Assembly: GCF_021028975.2 (NCBI RefSeq) | Contig: NC_059426.1 | Location: forward strand, 76,694,001 to 76,758,000 | Source of the DNA: Sphaerodactylus townsendi | Lineage: Eukaryota | DNA: 64,000 nucleotides | Reading direction: 5' to 3' | Shown here: positions 28,230-63,400 of the stretch, piece after piece | Numbering within the stretch: the stretch's first letter is position 1 | How the letters are laid out: each line of letters starts with the position of its first letter | Notes under the pieces: generated by a model | The model's database searches: none | Seen by the model: the letters and a program-made list of their open reading frames with translations, nothing else | What the model was told of the DNA's origin: nothing | Program-made: the position numbers and the translations under genes

Positions 28230-29510
28230 TGTGCAAAGGAAAAGTAGCTCTTGGAATGATGACACTTTCCAGTTCAGCAAAGAAATTCTACCATCTTGAT
28301 AGCCAGGCTATGAAAATGCTGCAACTTCCACTTGTAGATTTCCCCATAGCTGCCCTTCAGTCCTCCAACCTCCTCTCAGTGGACGGAAGGGGCACCATCA
28401 AGGACTCATTAGATAGATAAGCAGAGTTCGTTGCCAAAAAGTCCCATGAAGCCTTGGCCAATAGGGCTGCTACAGTATCAGCTCTAATCTCCTTAGCCTC
28501 TGTTGTCTGGTCACTCAAACTCATCCAACTCATTCTCCCTGAGAATCACAGGATCCTAGAGGGCATGAACAGGATGTTGAAGGCAATGTCCATAATGACC
28601 TATGCAGCACACACCGTGGTAGCTTCCACTGTGTCCAGAAGGGCATCTTGGCTCAGAACCTGGCTAGTGGACTTCGAATCTAAGGCTATTCTCATGGCAT
28701 ACCCGTTTGAGTGTGGTAAGCTTTCTGGGGAGGAGCTAGACAAAATCCTTGTAATACAAAGGATAAGAAAAGGCTATTCTCAAGAGCTGCAGGAGGTAAG
28801 ATAGGAGACTGAATACAAGTTGAATACCATTGCCTCAGCAGACGCTGCCTTCAGCCGGAGGGTACTTCAGCATGTAATAGAATACTGTAATCCCAACTTG
28901 CATCAGGAAGATGCCATTCTTGGGCATCCCACATTTGAAGATATCCTCCCGCTTAGAGAGAGAGAGTGGAACTTTGATTACTTGCTGAGAAGGTTCCTTC
29001 TGCTCTGAGGGAGGGAGGGCATCTTTTCCACCTGCAAACCACATTGCACCAAGAGAATCTCAAGAGAGGAAACACAAATGGCTCAACCGAGAGCTTCCAA
29101 TTGCTAATCAACATAGAAGAGGCAAGAGCCAAAAATATACAGGGCACATCAGCTCAGAAAAGTAGAATCATAGAGTAGGAAGAGACCACAAGGGCCATCA
29201 AGTCCAACCCCTTAACTACTAAGTACTATTCTGCTTTCTTACCTCTGTTCTTCGCTAACAAACTATGCTATCTGTGTTCTAGTTATAAGGTTCAAATGTT
29301 AGTAAAATCAAGTTAAGTCAAGCCAAGTTGACTGTTTCTCTATACTGCTTGGAAAAAACTAAAGTGTTCTGCAGTAGCCCAATAGGGGGAGCAAAAAAGC
29401 AGAGTTTAGTCGCACCTCCCTGAGCAACCAATGGGAACAACCACATTTGAAGATGCCCTCCCTTCCTCAGAACAGACTAAACCTTCTCTGTAAGTAATCA
29501 TGGTTATGTT
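28230..29510 (+). mobile_element. Old, internally deleted DIRS1-type tyrosine-recombinase retrotransposon (gag remnant, YR C-terminus, ICR and right ITR)
   Basis: ORFs 28109-28804 give a DIRS ORF1/LAP2alpha-like peptide (LPLVDFPIAAL...IKDSLDR...RRASWLRTW...YPFECGKLSGEELDKIL); SADAAFSRRVLQ resembles a YR C-terminus; 28975-29025 is complementary to 29450-29500. Confidence 0.8.
29161..29212 (-). mobile_element. CR1 LINE 3' tail fragment inserted in the DIRS remnant
   Basis: Reverse strand ggggttggacttgatggcccttgtggtctcttcctactctatgattcta. Confidence 0.75.
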
Positions 29511-44124: not shown

Positions 44125-44464
44125 TCCCAATTCTCTGGTAGGTTTTAAAAAATTATTTTAAGTGCCTCTTGTGCCGCTTGTGTTAGAACATTTAGCCTGA
44201 GCACTATTAAGCTCGCTACCTTGATAAAAGAGCATTTTTAGTGCCTCTAAAGACTAATAGTGGAACTTGCCTATTGTGTCCACCATTTTGAGTTCGTGTC
44301 AGCACTCAAAATGGTGGACACAATAGGCAAGTTCTACTAATAATCTTTAGAGGCACTAAAATGCTTTATCAAGATAGCTTAATAGTACTCAGAATAAAGG
44401 TTCTGACACAAGCAGCACAAACAACACTTAAAATAACTTTTTAAAATTTACTGGAGAATCGGGA
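44125..44464. repeat. ~340-bp imperfect palindrome with a perfect 31-bp inner stem and 10-nt loop
   Basis: 44263-44293 is the reverse complement of 44304-44334; alignable arms extend outward with mismatches and indels. Confidence 0.95.
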
Positions 44465-44704
44465 TGGAGGAATAAGAGAGACTGTTTTGGTGTTAAATTC
44501 ATGTAGCATTGAGGCTCTTTCTTTCAGTGAAAGAACCTCAATGCTACATGAATTTGCAGCACCAAGACCTTCATGCAGTGGAATACTCCGCTGTGGTCCT
44601 AGTGCCTGCCCAGAGTATAGACACAAAATTGTTGAATCTGTGTTGTTTGATCCAAAACTAGTCACATTAATTGGGTTTATTCTTATGAAGCACTTCAGTA
44701 TTAT

Positions 44705-45554
44705 TGGAAACAATAAGGCAAGCAGATAAGAAACAAAATCAGACCGGGTAGCCAACCCCCCCAAAAAACTTGCCAAAAATTCAAGGAAGCTTATACTATG
44801 ATGAAACTATATTAATACATTCAATGAACATACACACATAATCATAAGAGAAACAAGTTCTACCATGAAATCATTCAAACTTAGTTGTAGTTCATTGAGA
44901 AAGAGTGCAAAGAGCGGTGGGACCTCTGTCCACTCACCGCACAGTCCAATGTTGGAAAACGGAACAGCCGGTGTCCGCAGCGAAGTAATCGCTGCTTCTG
45001 TTGTTGCTGCAAGTGTGCTGTTGGTGCTGCAAGTTTCTGTTTTTGCTGCAAGTGAATGCTGTTGGTGCTGCAAGTTTCTGTTGTAGCTTCAAGTGAAGAT
45101 TGCTGTTGGTGCTGCAAGTTTTGCTGTTGGTACTGCAAGTTTCTGTTGTTGCTGCAAGCTGCTGTTTCTGCTGCAAGTGAAGATTGCCTCTGTATATTGC
45201 TTTGCACATTAAAATTATCAACTTACCACTGCGGCTTGGCACACTTTAAATTGTCAACTTACCACTGCGACTTGGCACGCTTCAAATTAGACTCTTTGAT
45301 TACTTCGCTGCGGACACCGGCTGTTCGGTTTTCCAACATTGGACTGTGCGGTGAGTGGACAGAGGTCCCACCGCTCTTTGCACTCTTTCTCAATGAACTA
45401 CAACTAAATTTGAATGATTTCATGGTAGAACTTGTTTCTCTTATGATTATGTGTGTATGTTCATTGAATGTATTAATATAGTTTCATCATAGTATAAGCT
45501 TCCTTGAATTTTTGGCAAGTTTTTTTGGGGGGGTTGGCTACCCGGTCTGATTTT
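44705..45554. mobile_element. Young foldback insertion: 257/258-bp inverted arms, minisatellite spacer, 14-15-bp TSD; probably Penelope-like
   Basis: 44734-44990 vs 45298-45555 differ by about two substitutions and one indel; gcacttcagtattat at 44690-44704 and 45555-45569. Confidence 0.75.
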
Positions 45555-46939
45555 GCACTTCAGTATTATGCCACACAATTTGGGTGTAAGAGAGATTATT
45601 TCATTTTTATTGGATATCATAGCGTTGTACTCTGTAACTGGTGACTTTTGAAGGTCACTACTCTGAATCCTGAAGTAGGTAGTGTTACCATGGATGGTAA
45701 AGGGAAATGTTGAATAAACATGTGTTCATCTTAATCCAGAATACTTCAGCCCATTCAGATATTTGAAATTTGGCCATCCCATATGTGTGACACGCATCAT
45801 AAATTAACAGGTGGATATTCTTCATTCCTGCAATATCTCCATCTGTTTTTGTATTGGAAGGATCATACAAAATAGATTGGATGATGTGTAAGATTTCCAC
45901 AGGTGGAAGAGGGACCATTTTTGCTAACTCACACTTTTATATTATCATTGGTGGTTGGTCCAGTATTCCCCAGGAAGAGCTTGGGGATGCATTTTGAGTT
46001 GCAGTGGGAGTGGGTGAGAAAGTTGAGCTCCACAGGCAGATATCCATTCAATCCATAGACATTTTTAGTTGATCATAGTTACTAAATGCTTGCAGATTTA
46101 CTAAGACATGTATGTTCAATGTTACGTGAGGAGGCAGGCATGCTGTCTTCATGCCCCACTATACAGATAGGACTGTTAAATGTCTAAACTGGCCCTACCT
46201 TGCTTTGAAGATGTTCCCAACTCCTTTACACTTGTCAACGTAATGCAGCATTTTGGTCTTGTATGTTAAGATGGTGTCTTCTAGCATGTATAGAAAAGCC
46301 TTGTACTTGTTTCATAGTCTTCTGGTCACATACATCCTTGTGGTTTTACATACTCATGAACAGGATGTTACACCGGTTGCATTTGGTGACATGAACAAGT
46401 ACCTACAAATAGAACATACTTTGCAGGCAAAACAGGCTAATTACTGTTTTGTTCAGATTGGAACCCGTTGTATGGATATCACTGCTTCCTTGTTTGAGGC
46501 AGTAGGATTAGGCAGTTTAGCAAATGATTAAAACAAGTTCAAGTCTCTTTGTATTTGGAATGTGTTCACGTTTAATTACTGAAAATCTAAAATACTCTTT
46601 CAGTTGCCAAATGGAAAAGTTCTAGTAAACAAAAAGTGTATTATTTGGACAGAAACAGCCTTATACAGTTGCAGTTCGATTAGCAGCAGTAGTTGGATAT
46701 GGGATTAAACTTTGTAACATCAAAAACACTGAACTCTTTGGCAGAGTATATAAATGTTACAGCAGGATTAAGTGTTATCTAATGCTCTATATCATTTTAC
46801 ATAATTTTCATACAATGCATATGACTGATTAAAACAAATAACTTACAGGAGGGAGGCTCTACAGTAAAATCACTGCTGAAAATTCTAGATTCCATGGTGA
46901 CCTGGTGCCTGGCATTCATTGTTCTCAAACCTACTGTAG

Positions 46940-50530: not shown

Positions 50531-53500
50531 AATACATTACAAAAATGTATTTTATTGATCCCCAAGATGTTGCTTCCTGAAGTGAAATGCATTTTCAAAA
50601 CTCAACTATAGAGTAACTTTTTGGGTAAGTTTTAAAATATCAAAGAAATCAAGATCAAGGGCAGGGAAGAAAACACACAACTCACAGTGAGGGGGAAACG
50701 CCATTTTTCTTTTGCAAAGTCTTTTCTTCCCTAAGTTCTTTGCCTGGTCTTTCTCTTCGTGGTACTACCATTGGCTTGGTTTTTTTTCTCCCTCCCAGTC
50801 ATCTATGCTTCTGAAAACTTTTTAGTAGTTTTCCCTTGTCTCCTCATTTATGGTCCTTTCCACAAAACACAAAAAAGACATTTGTGAGTTGTCTTAAAAA
50901 GAAATGATTGCCTCTTTTTAGTTCACACACCCCAAATAAGACGTCTGGAGGTGTCTTTCCAGACAGCAAAGGTGTCAGAGGGGAAAAGAGGCTGTTTCCT
51001 GCCCACCCATTTTGCTTACTGGTCAGTTTCACCTTCAGCTTACGCCAAACTTTTTGTGTGCAACTGAAGGGATTCTCCCTCCCCCTATTTGCTGCAAGTT
51101 GCTCCAGGACACGTGCTGTGCGAGCTCTGATCCTGGGCGCTTTCTCCACCCAAAAAGTACATAGTTGTACTCAGCTGGTCCTTCTGGTTTCAGCAAATAT
51201 AGTTTTCCAGTTTTTAAATAAATTGATCAGCTATCTCCGTAGCTACACAGACACACATATGAGAATCTTAGCTGCTCAGAAGATTTGTTTTCCTCCCACT
51301 GAGAAACATTGGATTGATCTGCCTTCCTCAGACTGACAAGCTTTTAAGTTTTTCTGTACAATAAGAAAAAAGTTGCCAGTCCACATAGGGCAGGTCAACC
51401 CATTGCTTCTCAGCGGGAAGTAGACGGGTCTTCTGAGAGGCTAATATTCTAATATTTCTGACTGTGTAGCTATGGAGATAGCTTATATGGCCCCAGACAA
51501 ACTGTCTCTCTCATTGCATTTCTATGCCTGAAAGGAGGAGCAAATGATACGGTAAAAACCATGACCATTGTAATTATGTATAAATTACATAGAGAAATGA
51601 CTGATTTATTGCAGCCATTGTAAAGCTTCAATATGTAACACTGTCTTACCCACTAACATGAAATGCTCTCTAGCTGTCATTACTGAATAGTAAAGGTAGC
51701 TAATGAAAAAGTTAATGGAGAGGCCATTTATACATTTTAAGTATCTCACGAAAGGGTTGAGCCCCACAATTTGGGACATTTCAGTCATTTTTATTATTCT
51801 TTATATGATTTGCTCTTGCCATGCTCTTCTGTTTCTTTTCTTTCTTAACTCTCAATCTCATAATTTGAATTTTTATCTTTATGGTCTTAATAAAACATGA
51901 GATCTATGTGGATTGAAATAAATTTCTCTGCTTTCTTAAATTCTAACCTGTTTATTAGTTCAGTCTGTATATTTCTAAATATAGATTAGTTGGTTTTACC
52001 TGCTGTAGAAGATGGAGGGATCTGAAGCTGGTGAGAGGATCTGAGGGGAAGGTGTTGATAACATGTACAAACTGTAACTTCCTAATTCTAGTTGGTTTTG
52101 CATGTTAGAAAGTGTTTGCATAGAATGCAGGGCAACTGAAACAACACTTTGAAGAAAAAGCATTATTCTAAAAGAAAACAAGGCATTTTTCAACTTTTCA
52201 AAGTGTTCAATTTTTCTGTTTGGAAAATTAAAGACTTGTAAAAAATGGGAGGAATTTTTTTTTTATTTTCAATCAGTCTTTGCATAGTGTGTACTTTCTC
52301 TGATTCTGAAATTAGGGAGACCAGGCAATGTACTCTAATAACAGTAGCTTTAACTTTGGAATGAATACAATCTGCCCTCCAATGAATGTTTATATGTATT
52401 TTTTTAAAGCTCATAAATTGTTTTTTAGAATGACTAAGATATTTAATAATTTATGTGGACACCTGGCTACTTTTAATGTTTCTAGCAATGTGTACTGTGA
52501 AAGTAGAAAATAAACTAATTTAATTAATTAATTTAATTAGCTTAGTGATAGTGGTAGATCAGTGGTACTATACTGTTCAGGTTGCTTTTCAGGACTTTGG
52601 CAATCACTACCTCTTGTCACCTGAAGTAATCTCTTTTCATTTTCAGGGATTAGATGATGCGAAAGACCTCTGGCTGACCCTGGATAGCCACTGTCAGTCT
52701 GAGTTGATCGTACTGACTTTGATAGGCCATTGGTCTGATAGCAGGTTCATGTGTTTGTGTGTGTCAGTAACCAGGTTCTTGGGATGGTATCTGAAGTGTT
52801 ATTATTCTTTACAGAAAAAACTGAATTCAGTTTGCCTCAGCTGACATTTGGCTGAGGCTGTAAGAATAATTGAAAGCACCATCTTGAGTAAGGATTTAAA
52901 TGAATATTGTTTGTTCTCTAGTCTTAACCCATCTGTTGTAGAGACTTTGCTTGGTCTTAAAGGCAGTTGGTTCTTAGCTGAATTTGACTGGAACAGGTGG
53001 GGGGATTTCCTTGCTCCCCCAAACAGCTGTGCTGTTTTGATTATTCCTCTCTTTCCCATCTTTGTGCAATTGTTTGTGCTGTACTCAGTCAACAGAATCA
53101 TGTGGTTCAATGAAGGGTGAGGTATGTCTTGTTAATTGAAAGCTGAATTATAGCTCCAACTTCCAGTTTTCTGCTTAACATTTGAATAATCTTAAGCTTT
53201 TTCTCCTATGTGTTAGGCTAGTTTTTAAGCTGTGTTTTCCTCTGTCTTTCATCATGTGGCTTTAAAATCAGCGAGCTACATATTGCTAGAATGGGAATGC
53301 ATATTAACTATGTACTCTATAAATAACTGAAGTCTTAAACTGCTATGCCCTTTACAAAAAATCTTGGCGAAATATGTAAAATTTCTGTACAATGTGGCAC
53401 TTCCTTTTTACAATTTACCAGTTTACAGATATGCCCATATGAAGTATTTGCTCCAAAATTTACATCATTTGCTCATGAGTATTATAGTTTAGAAGTCTAC

Positions 53501-59334: not shown

Positions 59335-60290
59335 TAGGCTTGGAGATTTGGGTGCACCAAATCCTGGATTTGGTTCAAATCTGGGCATATTCGGTGCAAA
59401 ATCAGCCAAATATGTCCTGCCCGAATATGAACGAATTTGAATGCAAGGAATTCGAGCTTTTTTTTGACATTTTTGGTGGTTTTTGCATTTTGGCCTGCAG
59501 GGGGTGCATTTTTAAAGCTAGTAGCGCCAGAATTTCAGAGCATCATTCAGAAACTCTCCTGATGATGTCCCCCAAGTTTGGTGAAGTTTGGTTTAGGGGG
59601 TCCAAAGTTATGGGCCCCCAAAATGGGTGCTCCATCCCTCATTGTTTCCAATGGGAGCTAACAGGAGATGGGGGCTACCTTTTTGAGGGTCTATAACTTT
59701 GGACCCCCTGAACCAAACTTCACCAAGCCTGGGTGGTATCATCAGTACAATCTCTGGATGAGACTCTGAAAGTTTGGTGTCAGTAGCTTTAAAAATGTGC
59801 CCCTGACAGGCACCCCAAGAAATTTGCCCAGATTCTCTGTTCTGCAGTTCTTTGGCTCCATTGTAGCCAATGGGGAATTTCTGAGTGTGTAAGCAGGCTG
59901 CACATTTTTGAAGTTAGAGGCACCAGACTTTCAAGGTGGCTCCAGGAAGCTCTCCTGGTAATAGCATTTGGTGAATTTGGTGAATAGCAGGCTTGGTGAA
60001 TTTTGCTTCTGGGGGTTCAATTTTATGGGCCTCCAAAAGGCTTATTTTGTTTCCCCGCTCCTACACATGAAACCTGCTGGCTGATTTCTCTGAGAACTCT
60101 CTCAGACCACCCCTCTTACTGCCCCCAGAAGCAAAGTTCACCAATACTGGATGCTATTACCAGGAGGGCCTCCTGGAGCCACCTTGAAAGTCTGGTGCCT
60201 TTATCTTCAAAAATGTGCAGTGTGCACAGAAATTCCCCATTGGGTACAATGAAGCCGTTGTAGAACACAGAATCTGCCAGGCTCTTCAGC
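59335..60290. mobile_element. Non-autonomous DNA-transposon-like element carrying the ggaccccctgaaccaaac module
   Basis: tagg..attcgg/ccgaat-type end followed by copies of the module seen at 3620-4130, 5790-6040 and 38040-38260. Confidence 0.6.
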
Positions 60291-60428: not shown

Positions 60429-63400
60429 TTCTACTGTAGGTGTGGGGCATCTTGTATGGGTGTCTTCTCCACCAGTTGCAGAGAGGCAGGAAATGACAAA
60501 ATAATTATCCTTGTACTTCCTGTGCTATCTCCGGGGTAGCTTTGCCTCAGTATTTTCCTGCCACTGCAGAGAGCAGACGTGTTTTTTGGAGACTCTGACA
60601 AAAAACCCTCTGTTTGTCTTTGGCGCTATGTCTTCTGTGGGTCTGTCTGAGTATCTTCGTCTCAAACCCGGGTGAGTGCCGCGCTCCTGCTTAGGGAAGG
60701 GCCCCAGCCTAGAAAGGGGGGGGATCTTTACCAGCCAAATTGCCAGTTCCAGAGCTTAAATTCAGCTCTCCCCTTTGAGTCACGAAATGGAAGCTAGGTC
60801 TTTCTCCCCAGAACGGGAGACCTTCGTGGCCTCCGCTGCCGAGCGCACCCGCTCCACAAACCCCGGGAAGGCAAAGAAAAAGACAGGGGGAGCAAAATCT
60901 TCCGCGGCAAAAACAACCGCCAAAACGTCGGGCGCGGGAGAAACGGGCGCCCAGGAGCATGCGCAGTCGGCCGCGGATGCAAAAAAGAGACGTTTGCAAA
61001 ACGATGGGAGTTTCGCGCCTTCCCAGGGTGCGCCCCTTGAGGAAAACTCCACGGCCGACTCCTCCAGCCTTCCCAGGGCTACGGAGCAGTCGTGCCTCTC
61101 CGAGGGCGGCACAGATGACCGACTGCTGTTCTTCCCTGTGTTCCACCAGTGCAAGCACCCAGAATTGCAGAAACAAGGGAGGTTCATAGTCCATACCGCA
61201 AGCCTGACTGCCTGCTTCTAAGCTGGGATGAGGCGCCTCTGAAGCCTTTCGGCAGAGTTCCCTTCAGCAGGCAGATTGATCAAAGCTTTGGATGCAAGAG
61301 GATCTAAGGTTTGCTGTCGCCCGAGCTCCAGTCCTCAACTCTTAGGGGATCACGCGAGCGTCCCAGCAGTAGGGGAGGACTCCTGCTTTTCACAGAAGGG
61401 ATCCCTTAGCCCTCCCAGAAAGTGGAGGAGAGGAAGAAAGGTTATCTAGCTCTGGATGAGAGGCTGGACGGGAAAAAATTCTCTGATTCCCCAGAGGAAA
61501 CCACTGGAAACAATCCCCTGGAAACAATCAATCACCAATTTTTCTAAAATCTCTGGAGGAAAGCTTCACAAACCCTAATTCTCCAAAACTATTTCTGCCC
61601 TGGACTCCATGATCCTGAAGACGCCTGAAGAACTCCTTTCTATCTTCAGACTCTCGGGCACCTGCCCCCAGGAAACCAATTAAGGGGTTCCCTAAAGGGA
61701 AAATCTGATTACTTCCCCCCAAAGATAAATTGTAAGGAGTGAAAAGTTCTTTCCCAGTTCCTGAATGCTTTGTAAAAAGGATTCAAAGGCGGAACATGGA
61801 TGAATCCCACCTCCTGGCACAAAGTTACTTGCCCAACGTAATTTTAAGAAAAAATATTTTGGATGCCTCTAAACAATTCCAATGCCTTCCTCCAAAATCC
61901 TCCCGTGGATGCCCTCCCATGCTAATTTTTTGCGCGACTCTGGAGCCTTGGTGGCAAAAAGAAGGGGAAGGGAACATCAAAGACCCTTTGGATAGGAGAT
62001 CTGAGGCGTTGCCTTGCGCAGGTCCGGCGGGAATGGCTGGCAGCAGCCATTCACAAACCCTTTGACTTTCCCTCCCACTGTGGCCAGAGCCACATTGGCT
62101 GGTGAGCTGCAAAAGATGACTTCCTGGAAATGATACCAGTCCGAGGCTAAAGGTGTTAGAGGGCATAGAAAGAATTCTATCAAGACCGCTTTTAATTCTT
62201 TTATGCAGATGCCATCTCCTTCGATGCCATGCAGGCCTTAGGGGGGCAAGATCCATGGCTTCCAACATGATTACTGCTGTAGTGACCTAACGCGATGGAT
62301 CCGGCCCGTCGCAAGCTGGACATTCAATCTAAGCAACGTAGTGGCTGGTTACCCCTACTATGGAGAAGCATTGGTTTCGGTAAAGAACTCAATCTCAAGT
62401 CCTGGTCCAAACAAAAGATAACAAAAAGATGATGCGTCTAAAATCCAGTCTGGGACCAGACAGAACACCGTAAACACTGTAAACAAATTTCACTCCTTCA
62501 GATCTTCACAAGACCCCTTCCTAGGTCTCCAACGAGATGGACAAAGAAACGAATTGGCAAAACCAGCGAAGTCCTTTCGAAACCATAAGCAAACCGCCAA
62601 GCAGTTCAACAAACAAGGGAGAACCTTCAACTCCAACAAAAATAAGCAATGACTACCAAGACATTCCGGTGGGAGGTCGCCTCCAGTTTTTCCATACACA
62701 GCATCGGTATAAGGGAGTCAATGCGTGGACAGGGTGGACACTTCCAGACGCCTTTCCGTTTCCACAGGCTACGTGATAGAATTCAACATCATCCCGCGTC
62801 ACCACGTGTTGACTTCACCACTCTCAAACGACCCGATCAAAGCCAACAGAACCCTGGAGGCAATCTCTCACCTATTGAAAATTCATATGTATTTCGAAAG
62901 CCTGTTCCTACAGCTTTGAATCTGGTACTGGTAGGGACTTATTCACATTTCTTTACAGTCCCCAAACGCAATGGGGACTGGAGAGCAATTCTGAATCTGA
63001 AACGTCTCAACAAATTCATTCGGGTCCCAAAATTCAGGATGGAAACCCTCAGGTCAATTACAGCATCGCTCCGTCATCAGGACCTGTTGACATCACTAGA
63101 TCTGACCCTGGCTATTATGTTACTATTAACATTCCCATTCACAAATCACACAGGAAATAATTTGGAGTAGGGTTCATGTTCGTCCAGGATCAACACTACC
63201 AATTCAAGACCTTACCGTTCGGGCTGGCCACTGCCCCTCAGACTTTCTCGAAAGTCCTTCTAGCCTCGATCATTCTTCTAAGAGAACAAGGGGTACACGT
63301 TTACCCTTATCTCGACGATCTGCTGATACGCTCGCAATCTGTTGCCAAGGCAAATGAAGATACCAACGTAGTACAAATCATCTTGTCTCAACACGGCTTT

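What the first reader, a model, noticed from the sequence alone, without database searches (positions are those of the whole stretch)
44690..45569. Young foldback insertion with ~99%-identical 257-bp arms, a one-sided 29-bp tail and a 14-15-bp TSD
Seen in order: TSD, 29 unique bp, arm (44734-44990), a 307-bp spacer of degenerate gctgcaagt/ctgttg units plus a ~36-bp duplication, inverted arm (45298-45555), TSD. The arm retains CpGs and holds a donor-like GCG|gtgagt. Known: long TSDs suggest target-primed reverse transcription rather than a DDE transposase. Penelope-like elements often leave an inverted 5' pLTR with a short tail absent from the 3' copy. Inference: a recent insertion of a PLE family different from the 7551/47051 one (no hammerhead visible, possibly truncated away), or an undescribed foldback element. 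If transcribed in the intron it would form a ~257-bp dsRNA, a likely ADAR or Dicer substrate.
Basis: partly seen in the sequence, partly recalled or inferred. Interest (0 to 1): 0.7.

Follow-up and report, generated by a model that had tools for sequence, protein, structure and literature searches.

The report
Foldback stump of Neptune-type retroelement
This 880-base hairpin is a real, recent insertion of the cut-short end of a Penelope-like jumping gene in its known mirror-image-plus-tail layout, which likely forms when both cut DNA strands start copying the element's RNA; it is mostly ordinary.

Summary
In detail: 15-bp TSD, 29-bp tail, 98.8%-identical arms. It is a true insertion: three samples of a related organism carry the empty site with one copy of the 15-mer, and short-read contigs bridge the inversion junction. 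It is no new foldback element. The 'spacer' plus right arm is the 3' end of a Penelope-like element. A longer copy continues upstream through a minimal hammerhead into an RT + zinc-finger linker + GIY-YIG ORF, the Neptune/Nematis architecture. The hammerhead is truncated away here, and the 7551/47051 family is unrelated in sequence. The layout is published for PLEs, and this scan noted it in other genomes. Added here: 21 of 21 foldback loci examined have a 12-17-bp TSD and exactly one tail, against TSDs in 4 of 16 single-arm copies; the tail lies on the shorter arm in 14 of 21. That argues against simple cDNA snap-back and fits priming from both nicks at two start sites (inferred). Intron location and transcription are unverified.

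The parts
44690..44704 (.). Target-site duplication, left copy (15 bp)
   Evidence: Exact repeat at 45555-45569; single copy at the empty site in organism C (joint 44689 to 45555, 15 letters fit both sides)
44705..44733 (-). 29-nt PLE tail on the inverted copy
   Evidence: Same tail ends the non-inverted copies L002, L003, L004 on the sense strand; in near-full sister element L063 the tail ends about 3 nt before the ORF's ATG
44734..44991 (-). Inverted, 5'-truncated copy of the element's 3' end (pLTR arm)
   Evidence: 98.8% to right arm; 3 of 258 differences, closer to the right arm than to other full-length arms, 6-13 differences
44992..45181 (+). Minisatellite of 19-22-nt units, part of the element's 3' UTR; in the long copy it starts directly after the hammerhead cleavage site
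   Evidence: TRF and repeat finder; shared with L002, L003, L006, L007, L009; follows the hammerhead in L034
45182..45296 (+). Remaining 3' UTR with 36-bp duplication (45209-45280)
   Evidence: 9 matches at 8 loci genome-wide, 94-100%
45297..45555 (+). Sense pLTR arm, ending at the tail-less 3' site
45348..45374 (+). 27-nt two-helix hairpin that contains the donor-like motif (mirror copy in the left arm)
   Evidence: 13 sequences, 94.6% of cells paired, 4 pairs with two-sided change; 3 of the 4 cells are in L066
45555..45569 (.). Target-site duplication, right copy

Best explanation
This is a recent, 5'-truncated, non-coding insertion of the 3' end of a low-copy Penelope-like retroelement, likely of the Neptune clade, in the head-to-head layout with one tail and a 15-bp duplication, and it likely formed when both strands of a staggered cut primed reverse transcription. 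Shown: insertion into a 15-bp target; arm, spacer and tail belong to an element with RT, zinc-finger linker, GIY-YIG and hammerhead; every foldback copy examined has one tail and a TSD. Inferred: the endonuclease nicks the two strands about 14-15 nt apart. One 3'-OH primes at the start site at the pLTR end and gives the tail-less arm (here about 565 nt). The other primes about 29 nt further 3' and gives the tailed arm (here about 287 nt). Both cDNAs stop early and are joined head to head, and gap filling makes the TSD. The copy is dead: it has no ORF and no ribozyme. Identity as an EN+ PLE about 0.97, Neptune about 0.85, two-nick priming about 0.6.
For: L034 continues the spacer upstream into a hammerhead and a 443-aa open frame with YIDD, CxxCxxC and GIY-YIG-like motifs. 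Pfam GIY-YIG E=2.7e-4 and RVT_1 E=1e-3. All 8 long homologues found carry RVT_1; the zinc-finger cysteines and R, H, E, N residues are invariant in 8 aligned rows. Empty site with a single 15-mer in 3 samples of organism C. 21 of 21 foldbacks have a TSD (16 of 21 are 14-15 bp) and exactly one tail; chance 5e-7 if the two ends chose independently at p=0.5. TSD in 4 of 16 single-arm copies, Fisher p=1e-6. Tail on the shorter arm in 14, the longer in 7. Arms of one locus share private variants. In vitro, the anole Poseidon protein cuts and extends both strands, starts RT at two sites that bound the tail, and is predicted to be a dimer (PMC11167929, parts 1-2 of 4 read).
Against: Both Pfam hits are below the curated cut-offs. 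No tree against named Neptune and Nematis elements was built. [quoted passage not shown] That protein is from another clade. 4 of 16 single-arm copies do have a TSD, and 5' boundaries of single-arm copies are less sure. Two foldbacks (L014, L085) were recognised only after their TSD was found. The 37 loci are top hits of two searches, not a census. No intact autonomous copy of this subfamily was found: the L034/L069 copy is broken and interrupted.
Confidence: 0.65

Rival explanations
1. Same element, other route: a longer inverted DNA intermediate is made first (template jump or self-priming) and the GIY-YIG endonuclease then trims its two ends at two sites 29 nt apart and joins them to a staggered target.
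For: [quoted passage not shown] PMC11167929 recounts that the Drosophila EN needs the tail to recognise its substrate. It would explain the strict one-tail rule and the private variants shared by both arms.
Against: RT start sites mapped in vitro fall on the two tail boundaries without any trimming (PMC11167929). Arm lengths vary freely on both sides, from about 30 to 650 nt, as for two separately truncated cDNAs.
Confidence: 0.25
2. Snap-back or antisense self-priming: one cDNA folds back and copies itself, so the short arm is a copy of the long arm.
For: Proposed for Adineta PLEs from palindromes at inverted junctions (PMC3846280, passages). L004 has a short palindrome at its 5' junction, and the arms of L017 and L020 meet directly.
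Against: A copy cannot hold sequence its template lacks: the tail is on the shorter arm here and in 14 of 21 foldbacks. The window junction shows no palindrome, at most 1 nt of overlap.
Confidence: 0.08
3. An undescribed non-autonomous foldback or long-TIR DNA transposon, or an assembly artefact.
For: Long inverted arms; the region has MITE-like palindromes nearby.
Against: No two copies share the same foldback geometry; many are single-armed; TSDs are 12-17 bp; the sequence runs into an RT + GIY-YIG ORF. Junctions occur in short-read contigs of other samples and the empty allele exists.
Confidence: 0.02

Closest known systems
Complex insertions of EN+ Penelope-like elements (Penelope/Poseidon, Neptune, Nematis, Naiad): inverted 5'-truncated copy plus 30-40-bp tail at one end (PMC8557442, passages)
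   Same: Inverted 5'-truncated copy, tail at one end only, 5' truncation, tandem pLTR in the near-full sister copy L063, hammerhead in the 3' part
   Different: Tail is 29 nt; no ORF left in this copy; a minisatellite follows the hammerhead in this subfamily
Pen2a_Av and Pen2_Av of Adineta vaga (PMC3846280, passages)
   Same: Inverted pLTR, 31-bp optional tail, TSD in inverted copies; one non-inverted copy without TSD is described there too
   Different: TSD 8-10 bp there against 12-17 bp here; there the pLTR and tail include the first codons, here the tail ends at about the ATG
Poseidon of Anolis carolinensis, PAc (PMC11167929, parts 1-2 of 4)
   Same: Two 3' ends that bound a tail; AT-rich targets (65% AT in 21 TSDs); hammerhead
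   Different: Penelope/Poseidon lacks the zinc-finger linker found here; PAc start sites lie 111-118 nt inside the ORF; the main text read does not treat inverted copies
LINE-1 twin priming (recalled, no call)
   Same: Second nick primes a second cDNA, giving a 5' inversion inside a TSD
   Different: In LINE-1 the inverted piece is an upstream, mostly non-overlapping part of the RNA; here the same 3' end is copied twice and there is no poly(A)

Membership tests
EN+ Penelope-like elements | Single ORF with RT followed by C-terminal GIY-YIG endonuclease | tested here: met
   L034:5923-7251, contiguous with the spacer and arm: RVT_1 E=1e-3, GIY-YIG E=2.7e-4, both below Pfam cut-off; motifs conserved in alignment. 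Met in the family, absent from the window copy.
EN+ Penelope-like elements | [quoted passage not shown] | tested here: met
   C345, R362, H366, E419, N434 invariant in 8 rows; L034 has two cysteines between the two tyrosine motifs; definition from PMC8557442
EN+ Penelope-like elements | pLTRs from tandem or inverted copies | tested here: met
   Tandem pLTRs 97% alike in sister element L063; inverted in 21 of 37 loci
EN+ Penelope-like elements | Optional 30-40-bp tail at one end | tested here: met
   29 nt here; exactly one tail in 21 of 21 foldbacks
EN+ Penelope-like elements | Type I hammerhead motif in the terminal region | tested here: met
   14 motifs aligned, core conserved; the own-subfamily copy L034 has A for the conserved U of the core (1 of 14); Rfam did not detect it; absent from the window copy; cleavage not tested
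EN+ Penelope-like elements | RT clusters with PLE/telomerase RTs in a tree | not tested
   No named reference set was at hand; PDB search gave only weak RT hits, E 0.035 and 0.45
EN+ Penelope-like elements | Retained spliceosomal intron | not testable with these tools
   Donor-like motif conserved in several subfamilies but not found by motif in L063, L068 or L092; no RNA to test splicing
Neptune / Nematis clades | CX2-5CxxC zinc-finger linker between RT and EN | tested here: met
   C301, C304, C307 invariant in 8 rows; absent in Penelope/Poseidon per PMC8557442
Neptune (versus Nematis) | Phylogenetic placement of RT | not tested
   Assigned by host range only: a bioRxiv preprint (10.64898/2026.07.22.740005, passages) found Neptune and Poseidon as the vertebrate groups
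Naiad / Chlamys | N-terminal GIY-YIG, no canonical hammerhead | tested here: not met
   EN is C-terminal and a hammerhead is present
Long-TIR DNA transposon / foldback element | Symmetric termini, fixed short TSD, constant unit | tested here: not met
   Asymmetric ends, TSD 12-17 bp, variable geometry

The most novel reading that the evidence does not exclude
Foldback Neptune insertions record a strictly coupled two-strand priming reaction: one enzyme complex nicks both strands 14-15 nt apart and always starts one cDNA at the tail end and the other at the pLTR end. The 21-of-21 one-tail-plus-TSD rule, with the tail on either arm, would then be the in vivo footprint of how Penelope-like elements finish integration, a step still open after the first in vitro study. 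I did not find this model in four literature searches ('twin priming' occurred 0 times in the 20 papers listed of 32). Older subscription reviews were not readable.
Probability: 0.4. Interest if true: 0.55.

Novelty: new member of a known kind. Interest (0 to 1): 0.25.

Why it matters
As a locus it matters little: a dead 880-bp stump of a known element class. As a record of mechanism it has some use. How PLEs make inverted ends, tails and TSDs is unresolved. This family gives a young copy with a verified empty site and a counted rule (one tail and a roughly 15-bp TSD per foldback, tail on either arm) that disfavours simple snap-back. It also makes a prediction for the existing in vitro system. 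The insertion is a presence/absence marker among four related organisms.

Tried and rejected
Rfam on the 3' UTR of L034: 4 chance-level matches, no hammerhead model hit; the motif was found by pattern and pairing instead. PDB sequence search: two weak RT hits only. No RNA holder listed, so expression, editing and siRNAs were not tested. No long reads were offered. The right outer junction is covered by only 28-30 arm letters, below the tool's 31-letter bridging rule. Idea that short copies begin at the hammerhead cleavage site: the window copy starts early in the minisatellite, close to where cleavage would fall. But the other young copies start at scattered points, the repeat units make the register ambiguous, and only 3 exact matches to the subfamily hammerhead pattern exist; not supported. 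Search for an intact source copy: none found (searches give lower bounds). Host gene search: no exon recognised near the element. The homologue search covered only proteins longer than 776 aa and gave no clade name. Supplements of the papers were not opened; they may hold TSD or tail counts that bear on the novelty claim. L022, L023 and L071 were left out of the tally because their boundaries were not set; 8 matches came without loci.

Full report
Observation. The window shows, in order, a 15-bp repeat (44690-44704), 29 bp found only at this end, an arm (44734-44990), a 307-bp spacer, the inverted arm (45298-45555) and the second 15-bp repeat. The arms align over 258 columns at 98.8%. The spacer holds about nine 19-22-nt units and a 36-bp duplication. 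The arm keeps 7 CpG, observed/expected 0.65 against 0.32 for the window. As RNA the arms would pair as one long helix, -560 kcal/mol for the insert; this follows from the inversion and is no evidence of function.

It is a real insertion. No long reads were offered and all 8 listed runs are short-read contigs. In organism A, contigs span the central inversion junction (44931-45072) with no differences in runs X1, X2 and X3, which are two samples; one may be the source of the assembly. X1 also spans the left junction. Organism B has contigs reaching 28-30 letters into both ends, just under the bridging rule, with 4 differences in 774 flank bases. Organism D, from another study, spans the left junction at low depth. 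In all three samples of organism C (one study), one contig joins 44689 to 45555, skips 865 bases and keeps one copy of the 15-mer; its flank differs at 12 sites plus 3 gaps in about 745 bases. So the duplication arose on insertion. The arm-to-arm difference (3 of 258) lies between the flank distances to B and C, which fits an insertion after the split from C and before the split from B; ancestral polymorphism is not excluded.

The family. The arm finds 24 matches at 16 loci in the 1.81-Gb genome: 9 loci at 89-100% and older ones near 70%. An exact tail pattern finds 8 places. Spacer, right arm and tail form one sense-strand unit: L002, L003 and L004 are single, 5'-truncated copies ending in the tail. 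One copy runs further (L034). Upstream of the minisatellite lie a hammerhead motif, about 470 nt of AT-rich UTR and a 443-aa open frame with YIDD, a CxxCxxC linker and a GIY-YIG-like end. Pfam gives GIY-YIG E=2.7e-4 and RVT_1 E=1e-3, both under cut-off. Eight long homologues all carry RVT_1. An alignment of 8 rows keeps the linker cysteines and the R, H, E, N residues. PMC8557442 (passages) names that linker as the mark of Neptune and Nematis; Neptune is chosen by host range, not by a tree. This copy is broken and interrupted by another insertion, and no intact source copy was found. The hammerhead core is conserved in 14 aligned motifs from several subfamilies, with L034 alone altered at the conserved U; Rfam missed it. 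A near-full sister element (L063, 73-84% amino-acid identity) has tandem pLTRs, and its tail ends about 3 nt before the ATG. The tail is therefore read-through sequence towards the next tandem copy's start. The 47051 family is high-copy (1277 candidates) and shares no significant sequence with this one; that it resembles Poseidon is recalled, not tested.

The insertion rule. I examined 37 distinct loci: 14 of the 16 and 23. L022 and L023 were left out for unset boundaries, and 8 matches had no locus. Twenty-one are terminal foldbacks. All 21 have a TSD (12-17 bp; 10 of 15 bp, 6 of 14 bp; at most one mismatch) and exactly one tail. Random boundary pairs scored at most 8 against 11-17 for these. 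Of 16 single-arm copies, 4 have a TSD of 10-16 bp (L015, L084, L101, L110) and 12 have none found within about 1.4 kb or at the mapped 5' end; Fisher p=1e-6. The tail is on the shorter arm in 14 and the longer in 7 (not different from even, p=0.19). The two arms of one locus are closer to each other than to other copies: 3 of 258 against 6-13 for L001, and 1 of 192 against 10-13 in about 225 for L009. Cautions: the loci are top hits; boundaries were set by hand; L014 and L085 were recognised as foldbacks after their TSD was seen; arm lengths for L102 are rough; single-arm 5' ends are less sure.

Mechanism. Shown elsewhere (PMC11167929, parts 1-2 of 4 read): the anole Poseidon protein cuts and extends both target strands, starts RT at two RNA sites that bound the tail, and is predicted to dimerise. 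Inferred here: a 14-15-nt staggered cut, both 3' ends primed, one at each start site, two truncated cDNAs joined head to head, gaps filled. This accounts for the TSD going with inversion, for free arm lengths and for the tail on either arm. Simple snap-back (PMC3846280, passages) cannot put the tail on the shorter arm. Trimming of a preformed inverted intermediate by the endonuclease (PMC8557442) can, and stays the main rival. Against my reading, the in vitro paper saw no strand difference in start site, so the strict one-tail rule needs a coupling that has not been shown.

No host exon was recognised near the element, so 'in the intron' is open, and transcription, editing and siRNAs could not be tested. 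siRNAs from inverted Penelope copies are reported in transgenic Drosophila (PMC3681739, passages), so the idea is plausible but would not be new. The donor-like motif sits in a 27-nt hairpin kept in 13 sequences: 94.6% of cells pair and 4 pairs change on both sides, 2 of 500 shuffles reaching that. Three of those 4 cells are in L066, and the structure was drawn from these sequences, so this is a hint only. Other papers seen: PMC4209133 passages on minimal PLE hammerheads; the rest only as search listings.

Verdict. A confirmed, young, dead foldback insertion of a Neptune-type PLE: a new member of a known kind. Earlier notes of this scan describe the same layout in at least six other genomes; my reading was written before I saw them and I did not check their claims. 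Interest 0.25, resting on the empty-site proof and the counted one-tail-plus-TSD rule.

Noticed in passing
L034:~720-5920 (G000:C3:19602000-19611900): About 5 kb of another element interrupts the Neptune ORF; repeated ends and open-frame fragments look LTR/retrovirus-like (motif reading recalled).
   Followed up: no
window 45348-45374; L066:2394-2424: 27-nt hairpin around the donor-like motif, kept in several Neptune subfamilies, with two-sided changes mostly in L066; not found by motif in L063, L068, L092.
   Followed up: partly
L094:1501-1992: Foldback whose tailed arm holds only about 23 nt of tail joined to an internal segment further upstream, as if RT jumped soon after starting.
   Followed up: no
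L003 / L037:6369-6879: Single-arm copy inside a Gypsy-like pol; the flanks read as the start and the end of the RT region, so several hundred target bases seem lost (motif reading recalled).
   Followed up: no
window 44732 to 44998 (joint in organism C): Contigs of organism C join the inverted tail almost directly to the minisatellite: likely another foldback copy with a tail-only arm.
   Followed up: no
window 44125-44464 and 44484-44568: Two other palindromic, MITE-like repeats just upstream of the element; further palindromes at 3637-4086, 51226-51486 and 59493-59811.
   Followed up: no
window 824-991 and 4275-4442, minus strand: LRR exons (Pfam LRR_6) of a gene that looks like ribonuclease inhibitor (name recalled); first-exon candidate at 6865-6964.
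   Followed up: partly
window 28499-28750 and 62961-63164: LAP2alpha match (E=1.9e-5) and an RT-like frame without Pfam hit; probably DIRS-type retroelement remnants (recalled).
   Followed up: no
window 7551 and 47051: Hammerhead-bearing ends of a high-copy second family (1277 candidates); one locus, L121, has a weak GIY-YIG-like remnant (E 0.08).
   Followed up: partly
L022:988-1230: Two opposed hammerhead motifs of a sister subfamily within about 250 bp; boundaries not set.
   Followed up: no
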